Source of the DNA: Verrucomicrobia bacterium ADurb.Bin018
GTDB lineage: Bacteria; Verrucomicrobiota; Kiritimatiellia; CAIQIC01; Lenti-01
DNA length: 57,050 nucleotides
Assembly: GCA_002071335.1 (NCBI GenBank)
Contig: MWEZ01000002.1
Coordinates: 1 to 57,050 of the forward strand
Reading direction: 5' to 3'
Positions 1 through 57,050 of the stretch are shown here, piece after piece. A program made the position numbers and the translations under genes. Within the stretch, counting starts at the first letter, position 1; each line of letters opens with the position of its first letter. The notes below the pieces were generated by a model. The model was not told the origin of the DNA and did not search any database. It saw only the letters and a list, made by a program, of their open reading frames with translations.

Positions 1-1
1 A

Positions 2-769
2 GACCACAAATCACCGACCAACTGCTATCCCTGCAAGGAGTGGGAAGCCTACGGCGACGGCACCGGCAAGTGGGTTCTCTATCCTCGTGGTACCACACCG
101 AATAGATGCGCCGGCGACACCACGGACTACACCTGCAAGGAATGCGACGGCAAGGGAGAAGTGGGAAGTAAAAAGGATGGTACCCAAGAACTAGGAAAGG
201 CGCCTTCTGGCGCGAACTGGAAGTGTTGTGGGGGACAGCCCATAGATCCCAACTGGTATGACTGTTGCAACGGAAAGCCCCGGCATTTATACACTGAGAA
301 ATGTTGTTGTGATAAAGAAGTGTACGATCCAACAAAACAGGGATGCTGCAAGACTGAGAATACAACCCCAAGTCAGCTGTGTAGACTCACTAACAACCCG
401 GAAGAAGATGCCGATCCCTGTTCTTCGTTTGAGCCCCGATCTTCATTAACGGTGGGTCATGTCATCTGCTATAATGGGCAACCGTATGCTTGCACCTTTC
501 CGCAGAATTATCCACAAGGCTGGCCCGCATCCGTCATGGATACTTGCATAACACGACATGAAGAAACACACAAAAGTGACCCCCGCAGGACGAAATGCTA
601 CAAATGTACGACTTATGCTGCCGGCGCGCCCCCCAGCAATCACGATGCCTCAGAATGCGATGCACATAAAGAGGAACTGGAATGCGCCCAAGGATATCCA
701 GATGACATTCCCGGTATCAAAGAATATATAGAAAGCATTGAGATAGGTATTTCTAAGTACTGCCGGTAA
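2..769 (+). CDS. Cys-rich protein, C-terminal part (5' end runs off the window)
   Basis: Frame 2 is open from nt 2 with no stop before the listed GTG at 161, so the ORF is cut by the window edge. It has CxxC (CYPC) and CxxCxGxG (CKECDGKG) motifs. Four 13-aa repeats begin with vicinal Cys (CC-X11-CC-X11-CCC-X11-CC). HEETH (HExxH) lies near the C-terminus. GC is visibly lower than in core genes. Confidence 0.55.
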   Translation, partial: DHKSPTNCYPCKEWEAYGDGTGKWVLYPRGTTPNRCAGDTTDYTCKECDGKGEVGSKKDGTQELGKAPSGANWKCCGGQPIDPNWYDCCNGKPRHLYTEKCCCDKEVYDPTKQGCCKTENTTPSQLCRLTNNPEEDADPCSSFEPRSSLTVGHVICYNGQPYACTFPQNYPQGWPASVMDTCITRHEETHKSDPRRTKCYKCTTYAAGAPPSNHDASECDAHKEELECAQGYPDDIPGIKEYIESIEIGISKYCR

Positions 770-806
770 ATCTATTTCATCAACACCAGTAAAAGGCCTG
801 AATCTA

Positions 807-1889
807 ATGAAAACATCTTTCTTACTCATCACCTTTTCGGCGCTGTACTGCATTGTCACTACGGGGCAGGAGATAAAGTCGGAAATCGGCATAAAAGACA
901 TCTCTAAGCCTCACTCTGAATTATCTGTGGCACGCGGCAAACTGGTTTCTTTTAAAATCCAAGAAAACCCCAGACTCTTTTCGTATGCGATCTACGATCT
1001 GTTGTCCATAAATCGAGGTCCGTTGAATGGCAATACCGTTATGGCACATTTTTATGCCTCCACCCTCCAAGAACCCTTGCCGGAAGATGCCATACTCATT
1101 CTACATACACTCCACTATAATGACATTCAGAACACACGCACCTATTGCGCCGCCGGATTGGAAGCATGGCGGGGCGTTCTGCCATTCTCAGAGGAAAAAT
1201 GGAGCGAAATATGTGAGACGCCATCCTCAGTTCTTGGTCAATCATCTCCCGAAGACCGCCTCCCACTGGACCGCGCAATCCAAATTGCGAGCCAAGCGGC
1301 GAGGCGTCATTATGAACAAGACGGCCTCTCTGTCCAACAAACCCAATTGGATGACAAGGCATTGCGAAACAACTTTTCATGGGTGATTCCTATCGCAGTG
1401 ACTGTCCTTGATAGAAAGCACATGGGCATTTACTGGCGAATCATCGCCCTTGTTAAAATTTCCGACACAGGCGTCCTTCTCGATTATTACCCTGGGCGAG
1501 AAGCTGAAGAAGTGTACGAGGATGGAGCATCCACAGACGAAAAACTCGCTTTGCTCAATAAATATACAATCGAACCGGCAGAGGCCAAAGGGCTCACCGC
1601 ACATAAGGTGATCTGCAAAAATGCTTCTTTTTCCATTCCTGAAATCAATCTGGAAGACAACTATGACGCTGTGTCCGAATGGGGTCTCATGGAGGAGGAA
1701 GTGTCTCCCCTGGCCCAAAACTGCCCTTATATCCAATGGGTTCGTTCGTTGGATCCCGAAAAAGACTTTGTGCTTTTTATCGGAATTCTTGATGGGCCAG
1801 AGTCTCCTTGGCAATATTTGGACGCCGCCACGGCAAGGAACGGTATTCGAATTGGCTATTCATTGCAGAAAAGCAGCGTAGTCCCATAA
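807..1889 (+). CDS. hypothetical secreted protein
   Basis: 360-aa ORF with a signal-peptide-like N-terminus MKTSFLLITFSALYCIVTTGQ. No family recognised. It shares the lower GC of the upstream ORF. Confidence 0.55.
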   Translation: MKTSFLLITFSALYCIVTTGQEIKSEIGIKDISKPHSELSVARGKLVSFKIQENPRLFSYAIYDLLSINRGPLNGNTVMAHFYASTLQEPLPEDAILILHTLHYNDIQNTRTYCAAGLEAWRGVLPFSEEKWSEICETPSSVLGQSSPEDRLPLDRAIQIASQAARRHYEQDGLSVQQTQLDDKALRNNFSWVIPIAVTVLDRKHMGIYWRIIALVKISDTGVLLDYYPGREAEEVYEDGASTDEKLALLNKYTIEPAEAKGLTAHKVICKNASFSIPEINLEDNYDAVSEWGLMEEEVSPLAQNCPYIQWVRSLDPEKDFVLFIGILDGPESPWQYLDAATARNGIRIGYSLQKSSVVP

Positions 1890-1951
1890 GAATAAATAGG
1901 GACATCAATGTGGGATGCGGCAAGGATGGCGGATGTTCAACAGGGCGGCCC

Positions 1952-1979
1952 TTGACAGATTGCGCGCATAGGCATAATT
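1952..1979 (+). promoter_or_regulatory. candidate sigma70-type promoter (TTGACA, 15-16 nt spacer, CATAAT/ATAATT) facing the IS and rhomboid gene
   Basis: TTGACA at 1952-1957 and cATAAT at 1973-1978, read directly. The spacer is short (15 nt) unless ATAATT is used (16 nt). Confidence 0.3.
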
Positions 1980-2043
1980 GCTCAAAACTGATTGGCGATC
2001 GCAATACCAGCCCATTTGTCCCGCATCATCCTTGCCGCGCACG

Positions 2044-2057
2044 CTCAACGCAAGCGT
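2044..2057. repeat. 14-bp direct repeat CTCAACGCAAGCGT, left copy, abutting the IS end
   Basis: The identical 14-mer recurs at 3330-3343, immediately outside the other IS end. Confidence 0.85.
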
Positions 2058-3329
2058 GGCGAATTACAAGCAAAATGGATCAGCGATTTAGGCAACGGCA
2101 AGAAAAGCTTCATGAGCGGTTGCTCCTTGTAAGATTTGACGGGGGATAGAGTTGATAAAGTTCTGAAGCGCTCGTATGGCCTGGACCGAGACACGACGGA
2201 AGTCAGTCCCCTTCGGGTACCAGCGGCGAACATGCCGATTGGCGTTTTCAACGGAGCCCTTTTCCCAAGCGGCATAGGCATGGGTGTAATAGACTTTCAA
2301 ACAGGCATTGATCTTGGAAAAGAGGGTCTCGATCTGGCGAGCGTCGAGGAACTCGCAACCATTGTCCGTCGTGATGGAAAGGACCTTCTTCATCTGTCCG
2401 CTGCGGATTAGGTAACGCAAGGCCCGCAAGACTTCGAGCTGGCTGATGCGACGTAATTTGACAATGAGATAGAAGCGGGTCTTGCGTTCGATCAGGACCA
2501 GTAGGCCGCCTTTGCCATGAACGCCGGAGACCATGGTATCCATCTCCCAATGACCGAATTCGTCGCGGAGGGAAAGGTCAGGCCGGTCTTCAATGGACAG
2601 GTGGTACGGTTTTTTCCAGGCTCGCCGGACAGTCACGCATCGTTTAGTTCGCCGCTTGGGATGGTAGGGCGTTTCGCCGTGAAGAATCCCGATATCGCCA
2701 TGATTAATATGGGCATAGATGGTGCTGAGGGCGGGGACAAAAGGCAGCCCTTCGGCGAGCAGCTCCTTGCGTGCATGGGCCGGAGATTTTCGTTCGTTTT
2801 TGATTTTGATGGCCAAAAGACTCGCGATGAGGTTCGTGATGCGCATGCCCCGGCCCTTATTCTGAGCTCCGGCACGAATGTGGTCTTGGGCGATATGTTC
2901 CGAGTACTCCCAGTACTCCTTGTCCTGATGCAGAACCGGTTGAGCGATGCGGCCGCGGAGGATCTCCCTGTGTAACGTGCTGTACGGCAGACCGATCCGG
3001 CTGGCCAGTTCGCGGAGAGAAAGACGTTTATAGGCCGGCTGTCGAAGGTTCTGATTGTAGATCATGGCGATCTGCTCGCGATCCTTGAACGTCAAATGCT
3101 GGCCGGGGACGTGGTGGAGGGTGTATGGTCTAGTCATTGGGAGTTCCTTTCCTTTTGTCGGTTGGTTTTGTGTTCACTTGACATATAGGGATTGGACTCC
3201 CTTTTTTCGCGCCAAAATTTTGCCGCCCCCCTAGGGGGGCGCCTCGGCTCTTTGGCCAGGGCTTGGGCACCGTCAGGCGCCCCTGTTCAGACCATGGCCG
3301 GACTGATCCATCTCTTTGTGGAATTATCC
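2058..3329 (-). mobile_element. IS30-family insertion sequence (1272 bp)
   Basis: Single transposase ORF. The imperfect terminal inverted repeats are GGCGAATTACAAGCAAAATGGATCAG (2058-2083) and the reverse complement of 3303-3329, GGATAATTCCACAAAGAGATGGATCAG. The outer GGnnAATTnC block and the inner ATGGATCAG block match. The element is bounded by a perfect 14-bp direct repeat. Confidence 0.85.
2088..3137 (-). CDS. IS30 family transposase
   Basis: 349 aa with an N-terminal HTH region. The DDE-type core carries IS30 hallmark stretches HWEMDTM, TTDNGCEF and YAAWEKGSVENANRHVRRWYPKGTDF. Confidence 0.92.
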   Translation of the reverse strand: MTRPYTLHHVPGQHLTFKDREQIAMIYNQNLRQPAYKRLSLRELASRIGLPYSTLHREILRGRIAQPVLHQDKEYWEYSEHIAQDHIRAGAQNKGRGMRITNLIASLLAIKIKNERKSPAHARKELLAEGLPFVPALSTIYAHINHGDIGILHGETPYHPKRRTKRCVTVRRAWKKPYHLSIEDRPDLSLRDEFGHWEMDTMVSGVHGKGGLLVLIERKTRFYLIVKLRRISQLEVLRALRYLIRSGQMKKVLSITTDNGCEFLDARQIETLFSKINACLKVYYTHAYAAWEKGSVENANRHVRRWYPKGTDFRRVSVQAIRALQNFINSIPRQILQGATAHEAFLAVA

Positions 3330-3378: not shown

Positions 3379-4206
3379 ATGGTGAGGCGCATGAGTTTCC
3401 AGTACGAATCCTATCCGCCGCGCGCCACGGGCTTCTTCGACCGTCTGCCACCGGTTTGCGCGTGGCTGATCAAAGTCAACGTGGCTGTCGCGCTGGTTTT
3501 CTTTTTGCTGCCGGGGTTGCGCAATCTGGAAACGCTCTTGGCGCTCTCGCGCGCCGGCCTGCGCCACGGCTATCTCTGGCAACCGGTCACCTATATGTTT
3601 TTGCATGGCGGCTTCACCCATCTGCTCTTTAACATGTTCACGCTTTATTTTCTGGGCCCGGAAACCGAGCGCGCCATGGGCTCCAAGCATTTTCTGGCCA
3701 TGTATCTCATCAGCGGCGTGCTTGGCGGCCTTGGCTGGCTTTGGCTCATGCCCATCCCGTGGGCGGAATGCGTCGGCGCATCTGGCGCCATCTTCGGCGT
3801 GCTCGCCGCGTTCGCCACGCTTTATCCGCGTCGCCAGCTCACCCTCCTGATCTTTTTTATTTTTCCAGTCACCATGATGGCCTGGCAACTGGTCGCGGGC
3901 CTGGCCTTGATTGAGTTCATTCTGGCTAACAACGACAACTCCGGCGTGGCCCATACCGCACACTTGGCCGGTGCGTTCGCGGGATTCCTCTATATTGACC
4001 AGCTTTTCGAGAATGCCCACCTGCGCCGCCTTTGGGCCCGCCTGCGCGATTACGTCGCCCAGCGCCCCCACACTCCCCGCGCTGGCCCCCCGCCCCCCGA
4101 CCAAGCCGAAGTGGGCCGCATCCTCGACAAAATCTCCGCCCAAGGCATCCAATCGCTGACCAAGGCCGAGCGCCAAACCCTGCACCGCGCTTCCCGCACG
4201 TTTTAG
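3379..4206 (+). CDS. rhomboid family intramembrane serine protease
   Basis: Polytopic membrane protein with the catalytic GASGAIFG (GxSG) motif and the downstream HTAHLAGAFAGF His motif. Confidence 0.85.
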   Translation: MVRRMSFQYESYPPRATGFFDRLPPVCAWLIKVNVAVALVFFLLPGLRNLETLLALSRAGLRHGYLWQPVTYMFLHGGFTHLLFNMFTLYFLGPETERAMGSKHFLAMYLISGVLGGLGWLWLMPIPWAECVGASGAIFGVLAAFATLYPRRQLTLLIFFIFPVTMMAWQLVAGLALIEFILANNDNSGVAHTAHLAGAFAGFLYIDQLFENAHLRRLWARLRDYVAQRPHTPRAGPPPPDQAEVGRILDKISAQGIQSLTKAERQTLHRASRTF

Positions 4207-5986: not shown

Positions 5987-6174
5987 TTTTCCATGGCGTG
6001 GAAAAAATATTTCCACACTGTGGAAAAATCGGTCCAAAGTTGTTCCATTGTGTGGAAAAATCGCCAAAACTTTTTCCATTGCGTGGAAAAATCGCCAAAA
6101 CTTTTTCCATTGCGTGGAAAAATATCACCCCATTTTTCCACACTGTGGAAAAAAGATTTCCACACTGTGGAAAA
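5987..6174. repeat. array 1 of palindromic repeats (7 units, core TTCCA-N5-TGGAA; best units TTTTCCACACTGTGGAAAA)
   Basis: Cores at 5989-6003, 6011-6025, 6043-6057, 6074-6088, 6105-6119, 6136-6150 and 6158-6172. Centre spacings are 22, 32, 31, 31, 31 and 22 bp. The array includes a tandem copy of a ~31-bp unit (6057-6121). Confidence 0.9.
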
Positions 6175-6477
6175 GTGCGAGGCCCGCCCGTGAGCTGGCT
6201 GACGGACACCCCCGCCGGCGCGGTGCTGACCCTGCGCATTGTGCCGCGCGCCGCCAAAAACGCCATCGTGGGCGAACATGGCGACGCCCTCAAAATCCGC
6301 CTTTGCGCCCCGCCCGTGGATGGTGCCGCCAACGCCGCGCTAATTGAGTTTCTGGCCGACGCCCTCGCCCTCCCGCGCGCGCGCATCCAAATCCTTTCCG
6401 GCGCCACCTCGCGCCATAAGCGGGTTCTCCTTGCCCAAGCGCCCGCTGCCGCTATCCGCTCTCAACTCCAACCCTGA
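6175..6477 (+). CDS. DUF167/YggU-family protein
   Basis: The C-terminal ~95 aa ([44 protein letters not shown]...[14 protein letters not shown]) match the YggU/UPF0235 pattern. The track ORF start (5998) lies inside the repeat array, so the start was moved to the in-frame GTG at 6175 (alternative GTG at 6190). Confidence 0.7.
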
Positions 6478-6567
6478 CTTCTGACCTCTGACTTCTGACC
6501 TCTTTACTGAACCCTGAACCCCGAACCCTGAACTCTTTACTGACCTCTGAACTCTGACCTCTGACCT
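6474..6567. repeat. ordered heptanucleotide tract: three blocks of four CTGA(C/A)(C/T)(T/C) heptads separated by CTTTA
   Basis: Blocks at 6474-6501, 6507-6534 and 6540-6567, with spacers at 6502-6506 and 6535-6539. The tract spans from the yggU stop codon (TGA 6475-6477) to 7 nt before the hypD ATG. Confidence 0.9.
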
Positions 6568-6574
6568 CCTTCTA

Positions 6575-18769: not shown

Positions 18770-21601
18770 TTACATTTCGGTTTCGGCGGCAGGCGCGGTC
18801 GGTTCGGCGGGCGCGGCGGGTTCAACCGCCGCCGGTGCGGCCACTTCCGCATTTACCTTGAAGGAAGCCGTCGTCCGTTTTTGCCGCACTTCGTTGATCT
18901 TGGGGCTGGTCGGATACAGTTGCAAATAGCGGTCGCAGCTTTCGAGGACATCCGCGCTGCGGTCGAGTTCGTTCGCCACATCAATGGCCGCGAGGATGGC
19001 GGTGGCCACCTGCTGGCGCTCGCGCTCCGTCTTCATGCTCTGGCTGCCGAAGTATTCCATGCGCTTGTAGGTGGCCAGCGCGCCGACCAGGTCCTTCTCC
19101 TGTTCGAGGATCTGGGCGTAGAGGAGGCTGGCATCGTTGACCACTTCCGGTTCGCGCGCGTACTTGAAGATGTCGTTGAGCGCGGTCTTGGCAGCGGGCA
19201 GGCTGCCCAGTTTGAGGTTCGCGCGCGCGAGGGTGAATTTGGCCTGATAGAACAGCGCCGAATTGGGCCAGCGAGTCATCAGGTCGTTGAGCGCGGCCAC
19301 GGAGTCCGCATAGTCGCCCAGCTCATACTTGGCGGCCCCCATCCCATAAAGGGCGCGCTCCAGCACGGCGCGCTCTTCGGTTTTGCCAACCACCTGGCCA
19401 AATGCGCCGGCGGCCTCGGCCCACTGCTTGTGCTCCAGCATGGCCTGGCCCACGCGGGCAAATTCTTCCACTTTGTAGCTGCCGGGGCTGGCCAGCATGG
19501 CGGTCAGGGCGTCCTTGGCCTGCGCATATTGAGCCAGCTCCAGTGCGCCGCTAATGCGCGCATACTGCGCGTTCTTGCCTTCATCGGTGTTGGGATATTC
19601 CGCGGCCAGCCGCGCATACGTATCGTTGGCGCCGGGGTCCTTCAGCGCCATTTGCAACGACCCCTTCAAGTTGAGCGCCTTGGCCGCCAGATCGGACTTG
19701 GGATAAAAACCGAGGAATTCATCCAGCTTTTGGATGGCCGCCTTGCGAGTGGCATCGTTCGGCAGGCGGCTGAGACTATAGGCAAAGTAAAACCGCGCCT
19801 GCTCCAGCAAGGTGGCATTGCGCTGGATGTCCGCCGCCGAGTTGCCATAAGGATTGCCCGCCGGCGAAATAGCGGCAATCAGCGCGTTGAACTGCCGCGC
19901 GGCCTCGGCCAACTGGTCCGTGCGCCGGTAGCAATCGCCCAGCGCGAACATGGCCTGCGCCCGCGTGGGGCTCGGCTGCGACGACTCCAGATACAGCTTC
20001 ATGCCGTCAATCGCCCCCGCGTAATCTTGATCCGCGTAGGCCTTCCACGCGCGCTTGCTCAGCGCCTTCGGGTAGTTCTGGTCGTTGGGATAGTCGGTGA
20101 TGATCTTCGCCAGATAGTTGTTGGCGGTGTCCTGATCGCCCGCCTGCTCGGCCTTGCTGGCCAGATAAAACAGGATTTGTCCCGCCCGCGAGTCCTGCGG
20201 ACAATAGGCCAGGTAGCGGTCGAACAAATACTTCGACATCTCGGCGTTGCCGGCGCGGTCATACAACTGCGCGGCGGACACCAGCCCCTTGGCGGGGATG
20301 TCGCTCTTGGCCGCGAACCGCTCGCCCAGATAGTTCGCCGCCACCTTCGCATACAGCGAATCATCCAGATTCTGGTAGCACTGCAACAGGTTGGCCACCG
20401 CCGCTATGGAGAGCTCTCCCGACTCCGGGAACCGCGACAACACTTGCAGATATTCCGCCGCCGCATCCGCATATTGCTTCGAGCGGAACATGTTGTCCGC
20501 CATCATGAACTCGGTGCCCGCCGCCTTGTTGGCCAACGTGGTGGGCAGGTCAATCTTAACCTGCTTGCCGTACTTGGTTTCGAGGATTTCCTTGATCTCC
20601 TTGGCCGCCATGCCCGCGCTGGGACCCCACTCGCTGTCGCCGTATTTGATGAAGACGTTGTAATACTCGCCCAGCGCGCCGCTATACGCCTTGATGGCCT
20701 CCTCTTCCTTGCCTGCCTGCCCGGCCAACTTGTCGGCCTCCTCGCGGAAGAGCCGGCCCAGCAGCGACCGCGTGCCGGCCATCGGGCTTTCCTTGAGCGG
20801 GATCCCCATTTCCTTGAGGTTCTCGTCAATGGGCTTGATGACATCCATGTACTCCATCAGCACCTTCTTCGCGCCCGCCGGATTGCCCTTGGCCAGCTCA
20901 ATGTTCGCCAGCACCACGATGGAATCCACAAACTGCAAGTCCATGCCGCCCCACTGGATCGTCTCGCAAAGCTTGCGGGCCTCATCCAGCAACTTGTTTT
21001 TGTCGTCACCGCTCTTGTTTTCAGCTGCGCGCACCAGCGCTTGCGCGCGGTGCACCTGCATCGAGCGCTGCATTTCCTTGCCATCCGCCACTTCCTCGAC
21101 GCGCTTGAAGCTCTTGGCCGCCTCCTCGAACTGGCTGATCATCTGCAACATCTGCGCGTACTGATACGCCGCGTCGCGGTAAAACCGCGCCACATCCGCA
21201 TCCGTCGGCTTCTGGTTTTCGTACAACTTGAAAAAGGCATCATAGAGCGCCCGCGCCTTGTCGTATTCGCCGATCCCGAAATAGTTGCGCGCCAACGCCA
21301 GGCTGATCGCCTGCGCCTTGGGGTTGCTCATCCCCATCTCGTTGATGATCGCCTCCGCGTCCGCGTATTGCCGGCGCTGAATCAGGATTTCCGCTTGGAT
21401 GATCCGGCTGCGGTCTTTTTGCGAAGGGTCCTTCGCCAGCACCGCATCCACCACTTTTTGCGCAAAGTCCGCGAAGGGAGGCTGATAGTTCACCAGTCCG
21501 GAAGCAAACTTGAAGTCCTCGTCCACGTCCGCCCGGGCCCCCCAGCCCGCCAGCATTACAGTTGCCATCACCACCGTGCCGACCCACTTGCTCTTTTTCA
21601 T
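18770..21601 (-). CDS. large tetratricopeptide-repeat protein with signal peptide
   Basis: About 943 aa of TPR-type repeats (recurrent A..Y/F..A...P motifs). The preferred start is ATG 21601 (MKKSKWVGTVVMATVMLAGWGARA, with AGGAG 12 nt upstream). The track start 21613 is an alternative. Confidence 0.8.
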   Translation of the reverse strand: MKKSKWVGTVVMATVMLAGWGARADVDEDFKFASGLVNYQPPFADFAQKVVDAVLAKDPSQKDRSRIIQAEILIQRRQYADAEAIINEMGMSNPKAQAISLALARNYFGIGEYDKARALYDAFFKLYENQKPTDADVARFYRDAAYQYAQMLQMISQFEEAAKSFKRVEEVADGKEMQRSMQVHRAQALVRAAENKSGDDKNKLLDEARKLCETIQWGGMDLQFVDSIVVLANIELAKGNPAGAKKVLMEYMDVIKPIDENLKEMGIPLKESPMAGTRSLLGRLFREEADKLAGQAGKEEEAIKAYSGALGEYYNVFIKYGDSEWGPSAGMAAKEIKEILETKYGKQVKIDLPTTLANKAAGTEFMMADNMFRSKQYADAAAEYLQVLSRFPESGELSIAAVANLLQCYQNLDDSLYAKVAANYLGERFAAKSDIPAKGLVSAAQLYDRAGNAEMSKYLFDRYLAYCPQDSRAGQILFYLASKAEQAGDQDTANNYLAKIITDYPNDQNYPKALSKRAWKAYADQDYAGAIDGMKLYLESSQPSPTRAQAMFALGDCYRRTDQLAEAARQFNALIAAISPAGNPYGNSAADIQRNATLLEQARFYFAYSLSRLPNDATRKAAIQKLDEFLGFYPKSDLAAKALNLKGSLQMALKDPGANDTYARLAAEYPNTDEGKNAQYARISGALELAQYAQAKDALTAMLASPGSYKVEEFARVGQAMLEHKQWAEAAGAFGQVVGKTEERAVLERALYGMGAAKYELGDYADSVAALNDLMTRWPNSALFYQAKFTLARANLKLGSLPAAKTALNDIFKYAREPEVVNDASLLYAQILEQEKDLVGALATYKRMEYFGSQSMKTERERQQVATAILAAIDVANELDRSADVLESCDRYLQLYPTSPKINEVRQKRTTASFKVNAEVAAPAAVEPAAPAEPTAPAAETEM

Positions 21602-21728
21602 GGTCGCATCCATCTCCTACAAAATGGCCTGTCTGCCAGTCGAACGCTGTTGCAGATTCATGACTTGTTTATACCTGTTCAACCGGACTATCGTCAACCC
21701 GGAAGACATCTTTTTTGCGGAACCCACC

Positions 21729-22820
21729 ATGCTCTACAAGGAATACGGCTCCACCGGCAAGCGAATCAGCGTCATTGGCTGCGGCGGCATGCGCCTGCCC
21801 ACGCCCCATGACCACGCCGCCGGCATCGCCATCCTGCACGCCGCCCGCCGCGCTGGCATCAACTACTTCGACACCGCCCCCTTCTACTGCGACGACCAAA
21901 GCGAGGCCATCTTCGGCGAGGCCCTCCGCACCATGCCCCCCTCCCCCCACCCCCTCTACCTCTCCTCCAAATGCTCTCACGCCAACGGCGCTGATTTCCG
22001 CCGCGGCCTCGAAAAATCCCTGCGCCGCCTCGGCGTCCCCCGCATTGACTTCTTCCACATCTGGTGCGTCATGGATGCCGCCGACTGGCAGGCCCGACTT
22101 CGTGGCGGCGCCCTCCGCGCCGCCCTACGCGCCAAGGAAGAAGGCCTTATTGGCCACATCTGCGTCTCCGCCCACATGAGCGGCCCTGAAATCGAGGACA
22201 TGATCCGCCAGCACCCGGAAATCGAAGGCCTCACCCTTGGCAGCAACGCCATCAACTTCCCCTACCGCCAACAAGGCGTCACCGCTGCCCACCGCCATCA
22301 CCGCGGCGTAGTGGCCATGAACCCGCTGGGCGGCGGCATCATCCCCCAACACCCCGCCGCTTTTGATTTCATCCGCAGCCCGGACGACCCCGACGTCGTC
22401 ACCGCCGCCCTGCGGTTCCTCATCTCCGACCCCGCCATCACCTCGGCGCTTATCGGATTCCACAGCCTCGAAGAAGTGGCCGCCGCTGTCCGCGCCGTCG
22501 AACAATTCGCCCCCTACCCGCCCACCCATCTAGACGCCATCCGCCGCCGCCTCACCAGCGACTTCAACGAAATGTGCACCGGCTGCGGCTATTGCCTCCC
22601 CTGCCCCGCTGGAATCCCCATCCCGCGCCTCATGGACATCCACAACCTCATGCAACTCGGCGCCACCGATCGCGCCATCCACGACCGCTTCCAAAACCAC
22701 TGGGAACTCACCCCCGCCCAAGCCGCCGACTGCACCGCTTGCGGCCAATGCGAATCCCGCTGCACCCAGCACCTCCCCATCATCCAGCGCCTCAAAAAAA
22801 TCGCCGCCTTCCCCCTCTGA
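21729..22820 (+). CDS. aldo/keto reductase with C-terminal 4Fe-4S-binding Cys motifs
   Basis: MLYKEYGSTGKRISVIGCGGMRL is an AKR start. The C-terminus has CTGCGYCLPCP and CTACGQCESRC clusters. The start was set at ATG 21729, in frame with track ORF 21510. Confidence 0.85.
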   Translation: MLYKEYGSTGKRISVIGCGGMRLPTPHDHAAGIAILHAARRAGINYFDTAPFYCDDQSEAIFGEALRTMPPSPHPLYLSSKCSHANGADFRRGLEKSLRRLGVPRIDFFHIWCVMDAADWQARLRGGALRAALRAKEEGLIGHICVSAHMSGPEIEDMIRQHPEIEGLTLGSNAINFPYRQQGVTAAHRHHRGVVAMNPLGGGIIPQHPAAFDFIRSPDDPDVVTAALRFLISDPAITSALIGFHSLEEVAAAVRAVEQFAPYPPTHLDAIRRRLTSDFNEMCTGCGYCLPCPAGIPIPRLMDIHNLMQLGATDRAIHDRFQNHWELTPAQAADCTACGQCESRCTQHLPIIQRLKKIAAFPL

Positions 22821-22829
22821 AGCCCCTCA

Positions 22830-22934
22830 TTTTTCCACACTGTGGAAAACATATTTCCATGCTGTGGAATAAATTACGCTTTAGGTACCCAATTTTTCCA
22901 CACTGTGGAAAACTTATTTCCACGCCGTGGAAAA
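22830..22934. repeat. array 2 of the TTCCA-N5-TGGAA palindrome family (4 units)
   Basis: Cores at 22833-22847, 22855-22869, 22896-22910 and 22918-22932. Centre spacings are 22, 41 and 22 bp. The array lies in the convergent gap between the AKR gene and waaA. Confidence 0.9.
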
Positions 22935-22992: not shown

Positions 22993-23036
22993 TTCACTTA
23001 TTGCAATATGTGAATTCACTTATTGTAATAAGTGAA
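22993..23036. repeat. two abutting 22-bp AT-rich palindromes TTCAC-N12-GTGAA
   Basis: TTCACTTATTGCAATATGTGAA (22993-23014, near-perfect) and TTCACTTATTGTAATAAGTGAA (23015-23036, perfect 10-bp arms). They also read as two direct 16-mers TTCACTTATTG(C/T)AATA. They sit in a strikingly AT-rich ~60 bp stretch. Confidence 0.85.
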
Positions 23037-46895: not shown

Positions 46896-47000
46896 CAATT
46901 GCGCCTGACCACTCATAGTGTGGAAAACTTCACCGAAAGCCGCCGCGCCGGCCCGAGCGTGGTCACGCCAATTGATCGCGATAGTAGGCAATACGGATTA

Positions 47001-47035: not shown

Positions 47036-47791
47036 ATGAATAGGCACTCTCCACAAGCCACGGTGGAACTCTTCCATCTGATTCTTCTCGATTTGCTTGG
47101 CCGGAAAACCGACCGCAAGCTCTACGCCCTCAAAGGAGGCTGCAACTTGCGGTTTTTTCTGAAAAGTATCCGCTATTCGGAAGACATGGATATTGATGTC
47201 GGGCCCGGCCTCTCCAAAGACAAGCTGGCCGATCTTATGGAAAGCATTCTTGTTTCCAAAACGCTTGCGAATCTACTCACCGTGCGCCGACTCCGCATCG
47301 TTGAACGCTCAGCGCCCAAGCAGACCGATACCACCCAGCGTTGGAAATTCGGTCTCGAATTTGACGGGTCAGCCGTCTTGCTGCGCACGAAAATCGAATT
47401 TTCCCGTCGCGGGATGGATACCGAAACCGCTTTTGGTCCCGTTGATCCTCTACTCATTGGCACCTACGAACTCACACCGATTCTAGCCAACCACTACACG
47501 CCCCAAGCCGCGTTGCACCAGAAAATCCGCGCCTTGGCCACGCGTCGCGATGTGCAAGCCCGGGATATATTCGATGTGGACCTCCTGCTGAACTCCGGCA
47601 TCGTGCCTAAATCGGCCGACATCGCCTTGCGGCATAAGGCCCGCGACAACGCTATTTCTGTCGGGTTTGACACGTTCAAAGCCCAAGTCCTGTCGTTCTT
47701 GGCTCCCGACCATCAGAATCAATACGACTCGCCGGATGTCTGGGATGAACTTGTGCTGCGGGTGGTCGCGGCCTTGGAGCAACCGTCGTGA
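47036..47791 (+). CDS. nucleotidyltransferase AbiEii/AbiGii-family toxin (DUF1814)
   Basis: 251 aa with LKGGCNLRFFLKSIRYSEDMDIDV matching the family NTase motif (LKGG...R.SeDlD). Confidence 0.8.
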   Translation: MNRHSPQATVELFHLILLDLLGRKTDRKLYALKGGCNLRFFLKSIRYSEDMDIDVGPGLSKDKLADLMESILVSKTLANLLTVRRLRIVERSAPKQTDTTQRWKFGLEFDGSAVLLRTKIEFSRRGMDTETAFGPVDPLLIGTYELTPILANHYTPQAALHQKIRALATRRDVQARDIFDVDLLLNSGIVPKSADIALRHKARDNAISVGFDTFKAQVLSFLAPDHQNQYDSPDVWDELVLRVVAALEQPS

Positions 47792-48411
47792 CATTGGCTG
47801 GGGCATTGGAACGGCTGCACGCATTCGGCCTGCCGGTTTTGCGCACGGCGGATGTCACGGCGCATCTGGACGTCAACCCGGCCAATGCGTCCCAAATCAT
47901 GCTCCGGCTGGCCCGGCATGGCTACGTGCAGCGCATCAAGCGCGGCCTGTGGTCCTTGGCCGACACGGAGCCCATGGCCATCGTTTCACACCTGACCGCG
48001 CCGTTTCCCGCCTACATTTCCTTGCAGTCGGCGCTCTATCACCACGGAATGATCTCCCAGATCCCGGATGTCGTGTATTGCGTGTCCCTCGCGCGCACTC
48101 GGGTCTATCACACCCCCTTGGCGACAGTCTCCGTGCACCATGTCCCTGACACTTTGTATTTCGGATATGAACGGCTCGGCAACGGCGCCTTCGGCATGGC
48201 AACGCCTGAAAAAGCCCTGGTGGATTTTTGTTATCTGGGCCCCACGAAATCCCGCCTGTTTGCAGCCTTGCCGGAGTTGGAAGTTCCACACGATTTCAGC
48301 CACAAACGTCTGCAATGGATGATGGCCCGTATCTCGGATCCCAAACGCCGCGCGCATGTCCAATTACGAATCAATCGGCTTCTACAGGGCAAGGTCCGTT
48401 CTGTAACCTGA
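47788..48411 (+). CDS. AbiEi-family antitoxin-like transcriptional regulator
   Basis: 207 aa with an N-terminal winged-helix segment (VLRTADVTAHLDVNPANASQIMLRLARHGYVQRIKRGLWSL). Has a GTGA overlap with the upstream toxin stop. Confidence 0.7.
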   Translation: MTLAGALERLHAFGLPVLRTADVTAHLDVNPANASQIMLRLARHGYVQRIKRGLWSLADTEPMAIVSHLTAPFPAYISLQSALYHHGMISQIPDVVYCVSLARTRVYHTPLATVSVHHVPDTLYFGYERLGNGAFGMATPEKALVDFCYLGPTKSRLFAALPELEVPHDFSHKRLQWMMARISDPKRRAHVQLRINRLLQGKVRSVT

Positions 48412-56552: not shown

Positions 56553-56564
56553 GCCGGTCCACAC

Positions 56565-56662
56565 GATCCGCTGTCCCTACGCTGGAATGATCCAACAGGT
56601 TCCAAGGGTTATCCGGCCAACCGGAACTCTCAGCCCTCTCCATCGAGGACACCCCTAGCGAC
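56565..56662 (-). promoter_or_regulatory. TPP (THI-box) riboswitch aptamer
   Basis: The minus strand reads CTAGGGGTGTCC...GGCTGAGAG...ACCCTTGGAACCTGTTGGATCATTCCAGCGTAGGGA. This contains the conserved CUGAGA and ACCCUU-GAACCUG-...-GCGUAGGGA elements. Confidence 0.9.
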
Positions 56663-56684
56663 CACATTTTTTAGTCAACGACAG

Positions 56685-56721: not shown

Positions 56722-56930
56722 TTTTCCACACTGTGGAAAAAAGTTTATCCCACGCAGGCGGGATTTTCCACACCGTGGAAAAATCCACCGCCACGCGCCC
56801 ATTTTTTCCACACCGTGGAAAAAAGTTTTCCACGCTATGGAAAAACCAGGTCAAATTGTTCCACACAATGGAAAAACTTTCGGCGGATTTTCCACACAAT
56901 GGAAGAACTTTGCGGATATTTTTCCACAGA
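56722..56930. repeat. array 3 of the TTCCA-N5-TGGAA palindrome family (6 full units, 1 degenerate, 1 half-site)
   Basis: Cores at 56724-56738, 56766-56780, 56806-56820, 56828-56842, 56859-56873 and 56890-56904. A degenerate unit TTTATCCCACGCAGGCGGGATTTT lies at ~56745-56768 and a half-site TTTTTCCACAGA at ~56919-56930. Centre spacings are 42, 40, 22, 31 and 31 bp (and 32 to the half-site). Confidence 0.9.
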
Positions 56931-56951
56931 TAGGATGAGAAGGCAAAAGAG

Positions 56952-57025
56952 GATCGGTTTCCTTTGGGCGTTGATTTAAACACCTATCTCAAACGCACTC
57001 ATCAGGTGCAGAAAGGAAACCGATC
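56952..57025 (+). promoter_or_regulatory. 14-bp perfect inverted repeat whose 3' arm contains a Shine-Dalgarno-like AAAGGAAAC just before a GTG at 57026
   Basis: GATCGGTTTCCTTT (56952-65) pairs with AAAGGAAACCGATC (57012-25), with a 46-nt loop. An ORF (GTG AAG ATA CGT...) then runs off the window. Confidence 0.35.
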
Positions 57026-57050
57026 GTGAAGATACGTAACACAGTTGGAA

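What the first reader, a model, noticed from the sequence alone, without database searches (positions are those of the whole stretch)
56722..56930. Each half of the palindrome is a DnaA-box-like 9-mer; the arrays could be DnaA-binding (origin or datA/DARS-like) loci
TTTTCCACA satisfies the general DnaA-box pattern TTWTNCACA (E. coli consensus TTATCCACA). Each full unit is therefore two convergent boxes separated by 1 bp. That gives at least 12-14 box-like sites in arrays 1 and 3 and 8 in array 2. No dnaA or dnaN is in the window, and three arrays cannot all be oriC, so this is a hypothesis only. One piece of context is relevant. The rpoBC/ribosomal-protein/tuf cluster, the thi operon, the T2SS/LPS block and the exbBD operon are all transcribed leftward. 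This fits a fork moving right-to-left, meaning an origin to the right of ~46 kb. Array 3 would be permissible under that reading, and array 2 would not.
Basis: partly seen in the sequence, partly recalled or inferred. Interest (0 to 1): 0.7.

Follow-up and report, generated by a model that had tools for sequence, protein, structure and literature searches.

The report
Dispersed phased palindrome arrays, not origins
The flagged stretch is one of roughly a hundred or more copies per genome of an intergenic array built from a 19-bp palindrome, found in Kiritimatiellia bacteria; each half looks like a DnaA box only in this lineage, and the real replication origin lies elsewhere, next to dnaA.

Summary
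Three intergenic arrays (7, 4 and 6 units) are built from TTTTCCACA-S-TGTGGAAAA, with 17 exact half-sites against 0.4 expected by chance. The origin reading fails:
- GC skew does not turn anywhere in the window.
- The same unit sits at more than 200 fetched loci from Kiritimatiellia MAGs and metagenomes, about one array per 20-25 kb.
- Seven related species carry a canonical oriC between dnaA and dnaN, with direct, degenerate DnaA boxes and no palindrome.

What the arrays conserve is TTTTCCA-N5-TGGAAAA on a 22/31-bp lattice with phased A-tracts. DnaA-box positions 8-9 vary, and a sister lineage uses TTTTCCAAT-G-ATTGGAAAA, which is not a DnaA box. Arrays show no bias towards promoters or particular neighbouring genes. 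They are gained and lost between close relatives.

The best reading is a clade-specific, REP/BIME-like family of cooperative binding sites for an unidentified dimeric protein. DnaA may bind the CA-type halves as a side effect. The terminal "half-site" at 56920-56928 is a unit split at its central CT by an IS110-family element, and that insertion is why assemblies end here.

The parts
5987..6174 (.). Array 1: 7 palindromic units at 5987-6005, 6009-6027, 6041-6059, 6072-6090, 6103-6121, 6134-6152 and 6156-6174. Centre spacings are 22, 32, 31, 31, 31 and 22 bp. It lies between the gpmI stop (5955) and the yggU/DUF167 start (6190), which run in the same direction.
   Evidence: Orthologous arrays with different unit numbers are found in L069, L089 and L030.
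22831..22934 (.). Array 2: 4 units at 22831-22849, 22853-22871, 22894-22912 and 22916-22934. Spacings are 22, 41 and 22 bp. It lies between convergent genes: an aldo-keto reductase/4Fe-4S gene (+, stop 22820) and kdtA (-, stop 23070).
56722..56906 (.). Array 3, the flagged interval: 6 units at 56722-56740, 56764-56782, 56804-56822, 56826-56844, 56857-56875 and 56888-56906. Spacings are 42, 40, 22, 31 and 31 bp. It starts 10 bp upstream of a promoter-like site (56712-56685, - strand), which in turn precedes a TPP riboswitch (56556-56666, - strand) and a cytosine/purine-type permease gene.
56920..56929 (.). Left half of a seventh unit of array 3 (TTTTCCACA, then G). The unit is split at its central CT (AG on this strand) by an insertion sequence. 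The missing right half (G)TGTGGAAAA is found after the IS in L149, at 3952-3961.
   Evidence: The same IS end abuts TTTTCCACAC at a second locus, L158.
56930..57050 (+). Left end of an IS110/IS1111-family insertion sequence, 1457 bp long in L149. It includes a 14-bp inverted repeat (GATCGGTTTCCTTT ... AAAGGAAACCGATC) and the GTG start of the transposase at 57027. The window and four other assemblies end inside it.
   Evidence: Pfam DEDD_Tnp_IS110 1.8e-16 and Transposase_20 2.3e-21 on L149:2592-3644. blastn of the IS against all held loci. Contig ends.
46919..46927 (-). Isolated TTTTCCACA with no inverted partner, in the spacer between a short gene on the - strand and the AbiEii gene. It is not part of an array and may be a chance match or a true single DnaA box.

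Best explanation
The three arrays belong to a family specific to Kiritimatiellia. The family consists of dispersed, intergenic, helically phased arrays of one 19-bp dyad-symmetric unit, TTTTCCA-N5-TGGAAAA. In role and distribution it resembles the REP/BIME elements of enterobacteria.

The most likely mechanism is as follows. This part is inferred, not shown.
- A sequence-specific dimeric DNA-binding protein contacts the two invariant heptads, which are 12 bp apart centre to centre.
- Neighbouring dimers sit 22 or 31 bp apart (2 or 3 helical turns) on one face of DNA that is intrinsically curved by phased A/T tracts.
- They assemble cooperatively into a short nucleoprotein filament or wrap of 2-11 dimers.
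- This structure acts in nucleoid organisation or as a boundary element, not in the control of a particular gene.

Arrays grow by local tandem duplication of unit plus linker, and they are gained and lost between close relatives. They are not replication origins. In the window's lineage the inner bases (CA-S-TG) turn about half of the half-sites into perfect DnaA boxes, so DnaA may bind them. That is a lineage-specific by-product, not the conserved function.
For: Shown directly:
- Enrichment. There are 336 units in 0.8 Mb against 0.4 expected, and 205 arrays of 2-11 units in the held loci.
- Obligatory pairing. 96% of 366 exact TTTTCCACA have an inverted partner at exactly 1 bp (5 or more partner mismatches in 14). 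Imperfect partners differ almost only at positions 8-9, while TTTTCCA is 97-100% conserved.
- No compensatory change. The inner pair classes count CG 193, CA 69, TG 63 and TA 10, against 17 expected for TA.
- Symmetry at unpairable positions. The dyad also holds at position 9, which cannot pair in a hairpin with a 3-nt loop.
- Weak hairpin. The unit folds at only -5.6 kcal/mol as DNA and -6.9 as RNA.
- Quantised spacing. 217 intervals are 22 bp, 48 are 30 bp and 209 are 31 bp. The linker cores have drifted to about 50% identity, but an extra A-tract is kept, giving A/T tracts every 10.3-11 bp.
- Clean edges. There is no conserved motif or target duplication beyond the units.
- Position. At most 19% of arrays (21 of 113) overlap a called ORF although 88% of the DNA is coding, and those overlaps may be read-through ORFs. 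Context classes (50 same-direction, 12 convergent, 11 divergent) match the baseline gaps (177, 34, 56). The array lies upstream of a flanking gene 90 times and downstream 91 times. The 181 flanking proteins fall into 138 clusters of ordinary housekeeping genes.
- Turnover with persistence. Array 1's position is kept in four species with different unit numbers, while presence varies at another orthologous spacer.
- Lineage variation. L239/L240 use TTTTCCAAT-G-ATTGGAAAA on the same 22/30/31 lattice.
- Separate origin. A canonical oriC with direct DnaA boxes lies at dnaA-dnaN in L129, L234, L235, L237, L239, L243 and L245, with no unit in it.
Against: - No binding protein has been identified. No gene recurs next to arrays that could encode one.
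- Arrays lie somewhat closer to the upstream stop codon (median 43 nt) than to the next start codon (median 102 nt). That fits a transcribed, REP-like 3' element.
- Quantised spacing could be inherited passively from duplication of two ancestral modules, with no selection for helical phase.
- Whole arrays fold well as RNA (z about -6), although any tandem palindrome would.
- The exact match of the consensus half to a DnaA box is an unlikely coincidence if DnaA plays no part.
- Gene calls in the loci come from my own codon-bias caller, which missed at least one real gene.
Confidence: 0.5

Rival explanations
1. The arrays are DnaA-box clusters, a chromosomal sink or exchange platform for the initiator. 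They would be comparable to E. coli datA and DARS or to the B. subtilis DnaA-box clusters. Each unit would bind two DnaA molecules on convergent boxes.
For: - TTTTCCACA meets TTWTNCACA (my own knowledge: Schaper and Messer 1995).
- It occurs as a single direct box in the dnaA-dnaN spacer of this clade.
- The exact 19-mer lies about 60 and 120 bp upstream of dnaA in two Acidobacteria, whose dnaA-dnaN spacers carry direct TTTTCCACA boxes. It also lies in a five-box cluster upstream of nrdA in Saprospiraceae.
- Inverted DnaA boxes do function in DARS (PMC6868365).
- About 54% of half-sites in this lineage are perfect boxes.
- In 22-bp arrays the box density (one per 11 bp) equals that of DnaA oligomer sites.
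Against: - The constraint pattern is the reverse of the clade's real boxes. The real boxes vary at positions 3 (A/G/T) and 5 (C/T) and keep CACA. The arrays never show A or G at position 3, fix C at position 5 and vary positions 8-9.
- The sister lineage's units (TTTTCCAAT) are not DnaA boxes, yet they keep the lattice.
- Only 4% of exact boxes lack a partner, whereas DnaA sites elsewhere come singly or in direct pairs 2-3 bp apart (PMC11317965).
- The centre base pair is C/G in 99% of units, which a spacer between two independent boxes would not need.
- An estimated 100-200 arrays per genome is far more than any known DnaA regulatory locus.
Confidence: 0.15
2. The arrays are REP-type selfish or structural elements that act as hairpins in single-stranded DNA or in RNA. 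They would be spread by a Y1 (RAYT-like) or other transposase, with effects on mRNA 3' ends.
For: - They are high-copy, strictly intergenic and clustered. Presence varies between close relatives.
- They show a modest bias towards positions just after stop codons.
- Each lineage has its own consensus, as expected from amplification of a master copy.
- An IS110-family element inserts precisely at the unit's central CT at two loci. From my own knowledge, IS621 and ISPpu9/10 do the same in REPs (Tobes and Pareja 2006).
Against: - The hairpin is weak, with an 8-bp AT-rich stem at -5.6 kcal/mol.
- There is no GTAG or CGTC head (PMC3733652 abstract).
- The stem shows no variation at all, so there is no covariation, while the linkers have drifted to about 50% identity. 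That points to sequence readout, not structure readout.
- Symmetry extends to positions that cannot pair.
- No transposase recurs among the 181 flanking genes.
- Arrays are not excluded from divergent promoter regions.
Confidence: 0.2
3. The arrays are operators of a transcription factor that controls the adjacent genes as a regulon.
For: - The site is dyad-symmetric and is multimerised at whole helical turns. From my own knowledge, ARG boxes, NrdR boxes and BvgA heptads are arranged this way.
- Array 3 abuts a promoter-like -35 element.
Against: - There is no promoter bias (90 upstream, 91 downstream), and 12 arrays lie between convergent genes.
- The neighbouring genes are functionally unrelated.
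Confidence: 0.05
4. One of the arrays, array 3 in particular, is the chromosomal replication origin.
For: - Strand bias and GC skew place the origin to the right of the window.
- Array 3 is the rightmost feature in the window.
Against: - There is no turning point in the skew.
- No DNA-unwinding element and no dnaA or dnaN lie nearby.
- The array is one of hundreds of similar loci.
- In seven relatives oriC lies at dnaA-dnaN, within the mnmE-mnmG...dnaA-dnaN gene order, and has no palindromic unit.
- The sequence to the right of array 3 is an insertion sequence followed by an oxidoreductase gene.
Confidence: 0.01

Closest known systems
REP/BIME elements of Enterobacteria and Pseudomonas (repetitive extragenic palindromes and their mosaic clusters)
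   Same: - Short palindromic units in hundreds of copies.
- Strictly intergenic, and clustered with linkers of fixed length.
- Variable copy number between relatives.
- Used as a specific target by IS110-family insertion sequences.
   Different: - The unit is shorter (19 bp) and AT-rich at its ends, with a weak hairpin.
- There is no GTAG or CGTC head.
- No RAYT gene was seen.
- The stem sequence is invariant and does not covary.
- Units are near-perfect dyads, so no alternating orientation can be defined.
- A/T tracts are phased.
DnaA-box clusters: E. coli datA and DARS1/2, and the B. subtilis DBCs
   Same: - Several consensus DnaA boxes lie close together outside oriC.
- DARS also uses oppositely oriented boxes (PMC6868365).
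   Different: - Known clusters number 1-6 per genome, against an estimated 100-200 here.
- DARS boxes I and II are 5 bp apart, against 1 bp here.
- The conserved positions are not those DnaA needs.
- A sister lineage has units that are not DnaA boxes.
Multimerised dyad operators bound by oligomeric regulators (ArgR ARG boxes at 21 bp, NrdR boxes at 31-32 bp, BvgA/NarL inverted heptads at 22 bp). Comparison from my own knowledge.
   Same: - Inverted heptad half-sites with a variable centre.
- Centre-to-centre distances of 2 or 3 helical turns.
- Cooperative occupation of one face of the helix.
   Different: - Those operators sit in the promoters of defined regulons.
- The arrays here show no bias towards promoters or particular genes, and they are about a hundred times more numerous.
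parS (ParB) and NBS (Noc) sites. Comparison from my own knowledge.
   Same: - Dispersed palindromes that nucleate chromosome-organising proteins.
- The half-site TTTTCCAC resembles the parS half TGTTTCAC at 6 of 8 positions.
   Different: - parS and NBS halves abut with no spacer, whereas here 3 extra central bp separate them.
- Those sites occur singly, not in phased arrays.

Membership tests
Chromosomal origin (oriC) | Lies at the GC-skew turning point, usually beside dnaA or dnaN | tested here: not met
   GC skew is negative across all 57 kb with no turning point. The window holds no dnaA or dnaN. In seven related species oriC-like DNA lies between dnaA and dnaN.
Chromosomal origin (oriC) | DnaA boxes arranged for head-to-tail oligomers next to an AT-rich unwinding element | tested here: not met
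   All boxes in the arrays are convergent pairs, and no AT-rich unwinding stretch flanks them. The relatives' dnaA-dnaN spacer has direct boxes plus an AT-rich stretch next to dnaN.
Chromosomal origin (oriC) | One per replicon | tested here: not met
   There are three arrays in the window.
DnaA-box cluster (datA / DARS / DBC) | Several boxes matching the DnaA consensus within a short stretch | tested here: met
   Arrays 1, 2 and 3 hold 5, 4 and 6 exact TTTTCCACA. About 54% of half-sites across this lineage are exact boxes.
DnaA-box cluster (datA / DARS / DBC) | Sequence constraint follows DnaA specificity: CACA kept, positions 3 and 5 free | tested here: not met
   Arrays keep T at position 3 (117 of 120) and C at position 5 (117 of 120), but only 52 of 120 keep C at position 8 and 35 of 120 keep A at position 9. 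Boxes at dnaA/oriC in the same clade are TT[A/G/T]T[C/T]CACA.
DnaA-box cluster (datA / DARS / DBC) | The DnaA-box character is kept wherever the element is kept | tested here: not met
   L239/L240 have TTTTCCAAT-G-ATTGGAAAA on the same lattice. L241/L242 have TTTTCCACGCCTTGGAAG.
DnaA-box cluster (datA / DARS / DBC) | DnaA binds the locus, and the locus changes initiation timing or the nucleotide state of DnaA | not testable with these tools
   This needs EMSA or ChIP with Kiritimatiellia DnaA.
REP/BIME | High-copy, intergenic, clustered palindromic units | tested here: met
REP/BIME | Imperfect palindrome of 20-40 nt forming a stable stem-loop, with compensatory variation | tested here: not met
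   The unit is 19 nt and folds at -5.6 (DNA) or -6.9 (RNA) kcal/mol. The stem is invariant, and the inner positions vary without compensation.
REP/BIME | Conserved GTAG or CGTC tetranucleotide at one end | tested here: not met
   Beyond TTTT and AAAA the flanks fall to background composition. The feature is taken from the PMC3733652 abstract.
REP/BIME | Associated RAYT (Y1 transposase) gene flanked by units | tested here: inconclusive
   None appears among the 181 flanking proteins. Whole genomes could not be searched.
Transcription-factor regulon operator | Sites concentrated upstream of a functionally coherent gene set | tested here: not met
   The array is upstream of a flanking gene 90 times and downstream 91 times. 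Flanking proteins form 138 clusters out of 181, and 12 arrays lie in convergent spacers.
Rfam RNA families | Match to a curated covariance model | tested here: not met
   The window's only matches are three tRNAs and one TPP riboswitch. Nothing matches at the arrays.

The most novel reading that the evidence does not exclude
Kiritimatiellia have a previously unknown nucleoid-structuring system. A sequence-specific, filament-forming dimer occupies about 100-200 phased arrays on curved DNA. In the window's lineage its sites have evolved to double as perfect convergent DnaA boxes. Competition between the array-binding protein and DnaA would then make the arrays a regulated initiator sink that couples chromosome state to replication initiation.
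Probability: 0.12. Interest if true: 0.8.

Novelty: new variant of a known kind. Interest (0 to 1): 0.45.

Why it matters
- It removes a false origin or datA call from an uncultured wastewater and digester Kiritimatiellia lineage, and it shows where the clade's real oriC lies and what it looks like.
- It defines an apparently undescribed repeat family. Full-text searches for the palindrome found nothing relevant. The family gives a concrete bait, a 19-bp unit or a 22-bp tandem, for pulling down a new DNA-binding protein from a poorly studied phylum.
- It is a warning for motif-based origin prediction. In this clade a perfect DnaA-box string is over-represented for reasons that are largely independent of DnaA.
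- It explains recurrent contig breaks in metagenome assemblies of this organism.
- It provides a natural case of an IS110-family recombinase whose target is the centre of a host repeat.

Tried and rejected
- Extending the window. Exact-protein look-ups for two right-end genes failed, probably because I chose the wrong start codons. ThiD succeeded, but all four contigs shown end at the same point as the window. L149 finally bridged the gap.
- First gene callers. The longest-ORF and GC3-based callers were useless, because ORFs read through the stop-free palindromes and antisense shadow ORFs are long at 62% GC. A codon-bias caller seeded on Pfam-verified genes replaced them. It still missed the aldo-keto reductase gene at 21510-22820.
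- Probing for origin genes. Only the metagenome scan yielded a dnaA contig, L129.
- Viral contigs. They hold only 4 copies of the 19-mer, so I did not pursue them.
- Literature. No paper holds the palindrome. Three later searches failed on a bad argument or a time-out.
- Rfam. It finds nothing at the arrays or in the IS non-coding ends.
- Known motifs. From memory I considered and rejected CRISPR, parS/NBS, the NrdR box, the LexA box, CRP/FNR sites, IclR boxes and DNA uptake sequences, because the motif, spacing or distribution does not fit.
- Intrinsic terminator. Rejected because no U-tract follows the hairpin.

Full report
OBSERVATION

The flagged interval 56722-56930 holds six copies of a 19-bp palindrome plus one half-copy. 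The consensus is TTTTCCACA-S-TGTGGAAAA. Two further arrays lie at 5987-6174 (7 units) and 22831-22934 (4 units). Exact TTTTCCACA occurs 17 times in 57 kb against 0.40 expected, and no shuffle of 100 reaches that number. Units are spaced 22, 31 or about 41 bp centre to centre.

GENE CONTEXT

- Array 1 lies between gpmI and yggU/DUF167, which run in the same direction.
- Array 2 lies between convergent genes, an aldo-keto reductase/ferredoxin gene and kdtA.
- Array 3 starts 10 bp upstream of a promoter-like site. That site precedes a TPP riboswitch and a thiamine-type permease gene on the minus strand.

GC skew is negative over the whole window with no turning point.

A DISPERSED FAMILY

About 95 of these come from Verrucomicrobiota, Kiritimatiellia or "Lentisphaerae" MAGs, with many loci per MAG. 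A metagenome scan again hit its limit, at 117 loci. In all held DNA I counted 205 arrays of 2-11 units. In loci fetched through dnaA, which were not selected for the palindrome, arrays occur about once per 22-26 kb. In the window the rate is one per 19 kb. This extrapolates to roughly 100-200 arrays in a genome of an assumed 3-4 Mb.

ANATOMY OF THE UNIT

- Of 366 exact TTTTCCACA in Kiritimatiellia DNA, 96% have an inverted partner at exactly 1 bp.
- Imperfect partners keep TTTTCCA (97-100% per position, including T at position 3 and C at position 5). They vary at position 8 (C or T) and position 9 (A, G or T).
- The central base pair is C/G in 99% of units.
- Variation at the symmetric inner positions is not compensatory. 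The pair classes count CG 193, CA 69, TG 63 and TA 10, against 17 expected for TA.
- The unit folds only weakly, at -5.6 kcal/mol as DNA and -6.9 as RNA.

ANATOMY OF THE ARRAY

- Centre spacing is sharply quantised: 217 intervals of 22 bp, 48 of 30 bp and 209 of 31 bp.
- The 22-bp linker reads AAAAGTT.
- The 31-bp linker has a drifting GC core, with each position only 46-61% conserved, followed by a retained extra A-tract. A/T tracts therefore recur every 10.3-11 bp.
- Outside the first and last unit nothing is conserved.

Strong conservation of the heptads beside half-decayed linkers, dyad symmetry at positions that cannot pair in a hairpin, and spacing in whole helical turns together point to a protein reading the sequence on duplex DNA.

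NO LINK TO PARTICULAR GENES

I used a codon-bias gene caller seeded on Pfam-verified genes.
- At most 19% of arrays (21 of 113) overlap a called ORF, although 88% of the DNA is coding. These overlaps are probably ORFs reading through the stop-free units.
- The 73 clearly intergenic arrays split 50 same-direction, 12 convergent and 11 divergent. The baseline for all gaps is 177, 34 and 56.
- The array lies upstream of its neighbouring gene 90 times and downstream 91 times.
- The 181 neighbouring proteins form 138 clusters of ordinary housekeeping genes, including an ABC-F ATPase, PheS, TrpB, GuaA and Ddl.
- Arrays lie somewhat nearer the preceding stop codon (median 43 nt) than the following start codon (median 102 nt).

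Array 1's position is conserved in three other species with 3, 5 or at least 4 units and different linkers. At another orthologous convergent spacer, arrays are present in two relatives and absent in two.

THE DnaA QUESTION

In favour of DnaA:
- Outside Kiritimatiellia the same 19-mer is rare, but it is placed tellingly.
- It lies about 60 and 120 bp upstream of dnaA in two Acidobacteria. Their dnaA-dnaN spacers carry direct TTTTCCACA boxes.
- It lies within a five-box cluster upstream of nrdA in Saprospiraceae and Lewinellaceae.

A convergent pair 1 bp apart is thus a natural DnaA operator in other phyla.

Against DnaA, I obtained the clade's own dnaA loci. L129 came from the metagenome scan. 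Its DnaA retrieved 120 close homologues, several named Kiritimatiellia by their sources. Seven of these gave 12-21 kb contexts. These loci show:
- The gene order mnmE-mnmG...dnaA-dnaN in most of them.
- A conserved direct double box, TT[G/A]TTCACA-nn-TTATCCACA, about 140 bp upstream of dnaA. This is the arrangement E. coli DnaA prefers in vivo (PMC11317965).
- A dnaA-dnaN spacer with TTGTCCACA, TTATTCACA, TTTTCCACA and ATGTCCACA-GTATCCACA, plus an AT-rich stretch next to dnaN.
- No palindromic unit in any of them.

The real boxes vary at positions 3 and 5 and keep CACA. The arrays do exactly the reverse.

The most decisive result comes from a sister lineage (DnaA 74% identical; GCA_017527155.1). 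It has arrays on the same 22/30/31 lattice, with the same A/T-tract linkers, but its unit is TTTTCCAAT-G-ATTGGAAAA, which is not a DnaA box. Its dnaA-proximal boxes remain canonical. Another lineage has TTTTCCACGCCTTGGAAG. The invariant is therefore TTTTCCA-N5-TGGAAAA, and the resemblance to a DnaA box is specific to the window's lineage.

DnaA may still bind the CA-type halves. That would be a large sink, perhaps 500 perfect boxes per genome, but it cannot be the family's conserved function.

THE HALF-SITE AND THE WINDOW END

The sequence from 56930 onward is the left end of a 1457-bp IS110/IS1111-family element.
- The full copy is in L149, with Pfam DEDD_Tnp_IS110 at 1.8e-16 and Transposase_20 at 2.3e-21.
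- In L149 the element is flanked by TTTTCCAC-AG on the left and AG-TGTGGAAAA on the right. It sits at the central CT of a unit, and the core dinucleotide appears at both junctions.
- The same right end abuts TTTTCCACAC at a second locus, L158.
- A 67%-identical copy in another species (L047) has a different target.
- The element's 300-nt right end contains TCCACAGATAG and AAGAGTG, which equal the two junction sequences. This is suggestive of bridge-RNA-type guides, but I did not test it.
- The window and four independent assemblies all stop inside this multi-copy element.

With the IS removed, array 3 lies between the stop codon of an oxidoreductase gene and the permease promoter, both on the minus strand.

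CONCLUSION

- Shown: the arrays are real and are not origins. They belong to a dispersed, clade-specific family whose conserved determinants are not those of DnaA.
- Inferred: they are cooperative binding sites for an unidentified dimeric protein on curved DNA. The closest known analogues are REP/BIME elements. That parallel extends to being targets of IS110-family elements, but they fail REP's defining features (stable covarying stem, GTAG/CGTC head, RAYT gene).
- Rivals that remain open: a REP-like hairpin or mobile element (0.20) and a DnaA sink (0.15).

CAVEATS

- The binding protein is unknown.
- Gene calls in the loci come from my own caller.
The Kiritimatiellia dnaA and dnaN calls are confirmed by precomputed Pfam hits.
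- The dnaA locus of the window's own species was not seen.

Noticed in passing
window 56930-57050; full copy L149:2496-3952; second insertion L158:8365-8482: An IS110/IS1111-family insertion sequence is inserted at the central CT of a palindromic unit. It has sub-terminal inverted repeats (ATGAGAAGGCA). Its 300-nt right end contains segments identical to both insertion junctions (TCCACAGATAG, AAGAGTG), which may be bridge-RNA guides. Rfam has no match for it.
   Followed up: partly
window 22993-23036; also L180:3161-3204 and L217:2543-2564: A different 22-bp palindrome, TTCACTTATTG-N-AATAAGTGAA, occurs twice head to tail, 58 bp from array 2 and 34 bp from the kdtA stop codon. It recurs in two metagenome loci and looks like an operator for an unknown regulator.
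   Followed up: partly
window 6474-6568: The yggU-hypD spacer consists of CTGACCT / CTGAACC heptamer repeats (TRF rows with periods 14 and 7). Orthologous spacers in L069 and L030 carry TTCTTAA / TTCTTCA heptamers instead.
   Followed up: no
window 56556-56666 (-): A TPP riboswitch (Rfam RF00059, 58.7 bits) lies upstream of the cytosine/purine-type permease and the thiM-thiE-thiD operon. A promoter-like TTGACG-16-TATGGT lies at 56712-56685.
   Followed up: yes
window 47063-48411: An AbiEii toxin gene (Pfam 4.2e-16) and an unannotated 201-aa partner gene form a low-GC islet between the tuf/tRNA-Thr region and tRNA-Cys. This is probably a type IV toxin-antitoxin or abortive-infection module.
   Followed up: no
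window 1-3100: The left end of the window has low GC (0.49-0.52). It holds a gene with a weak integrase-core (rve) plus HTH_38 match at 2088-3095 on the - strand, so the contig is probably bounded by mobile DNA on this side too.
   Followed up: no
L129, L234, L235, L245 and others, about 140 bp upstream of dnaA: A direct double DnaA box, TT[G/A]TTCACA-nn-TTATCCACA, is conserved across Kiritimatiellia. In the clade's DnaA, domain IV reads RNHATV where E. coli has RDHTTV, a change in the DNA-contact motif that might alter specificity.
   Followed up: partly
many loci, e.g. L026, L028, L066, L119, L125, L131, L137: 39 of 205 arrays lie within 200 nt of a locus end (a contig end or the edge of a stored block). 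The repeats appear to break short-read assemblies of these genomes.
   Followed up: partly
L107:5392-5555: A contig binned as Lentimicrobiaceae (Bacteroidota) carries a typical array upstream of a type I restriction R-subunit gene. It comes from the same study as several Kiritimatiellia MAGs, so mis-binning is likely.
   Followed up: no
L038:6693 and L081:2346 (Pyrinomonadaceae): The 19-mer lies immediately upstream of an IstB/DnaC-like AAA+ ATPase gene in two species. This may be a DnaA-regulated helicase-loader gene.
   Followed up: no
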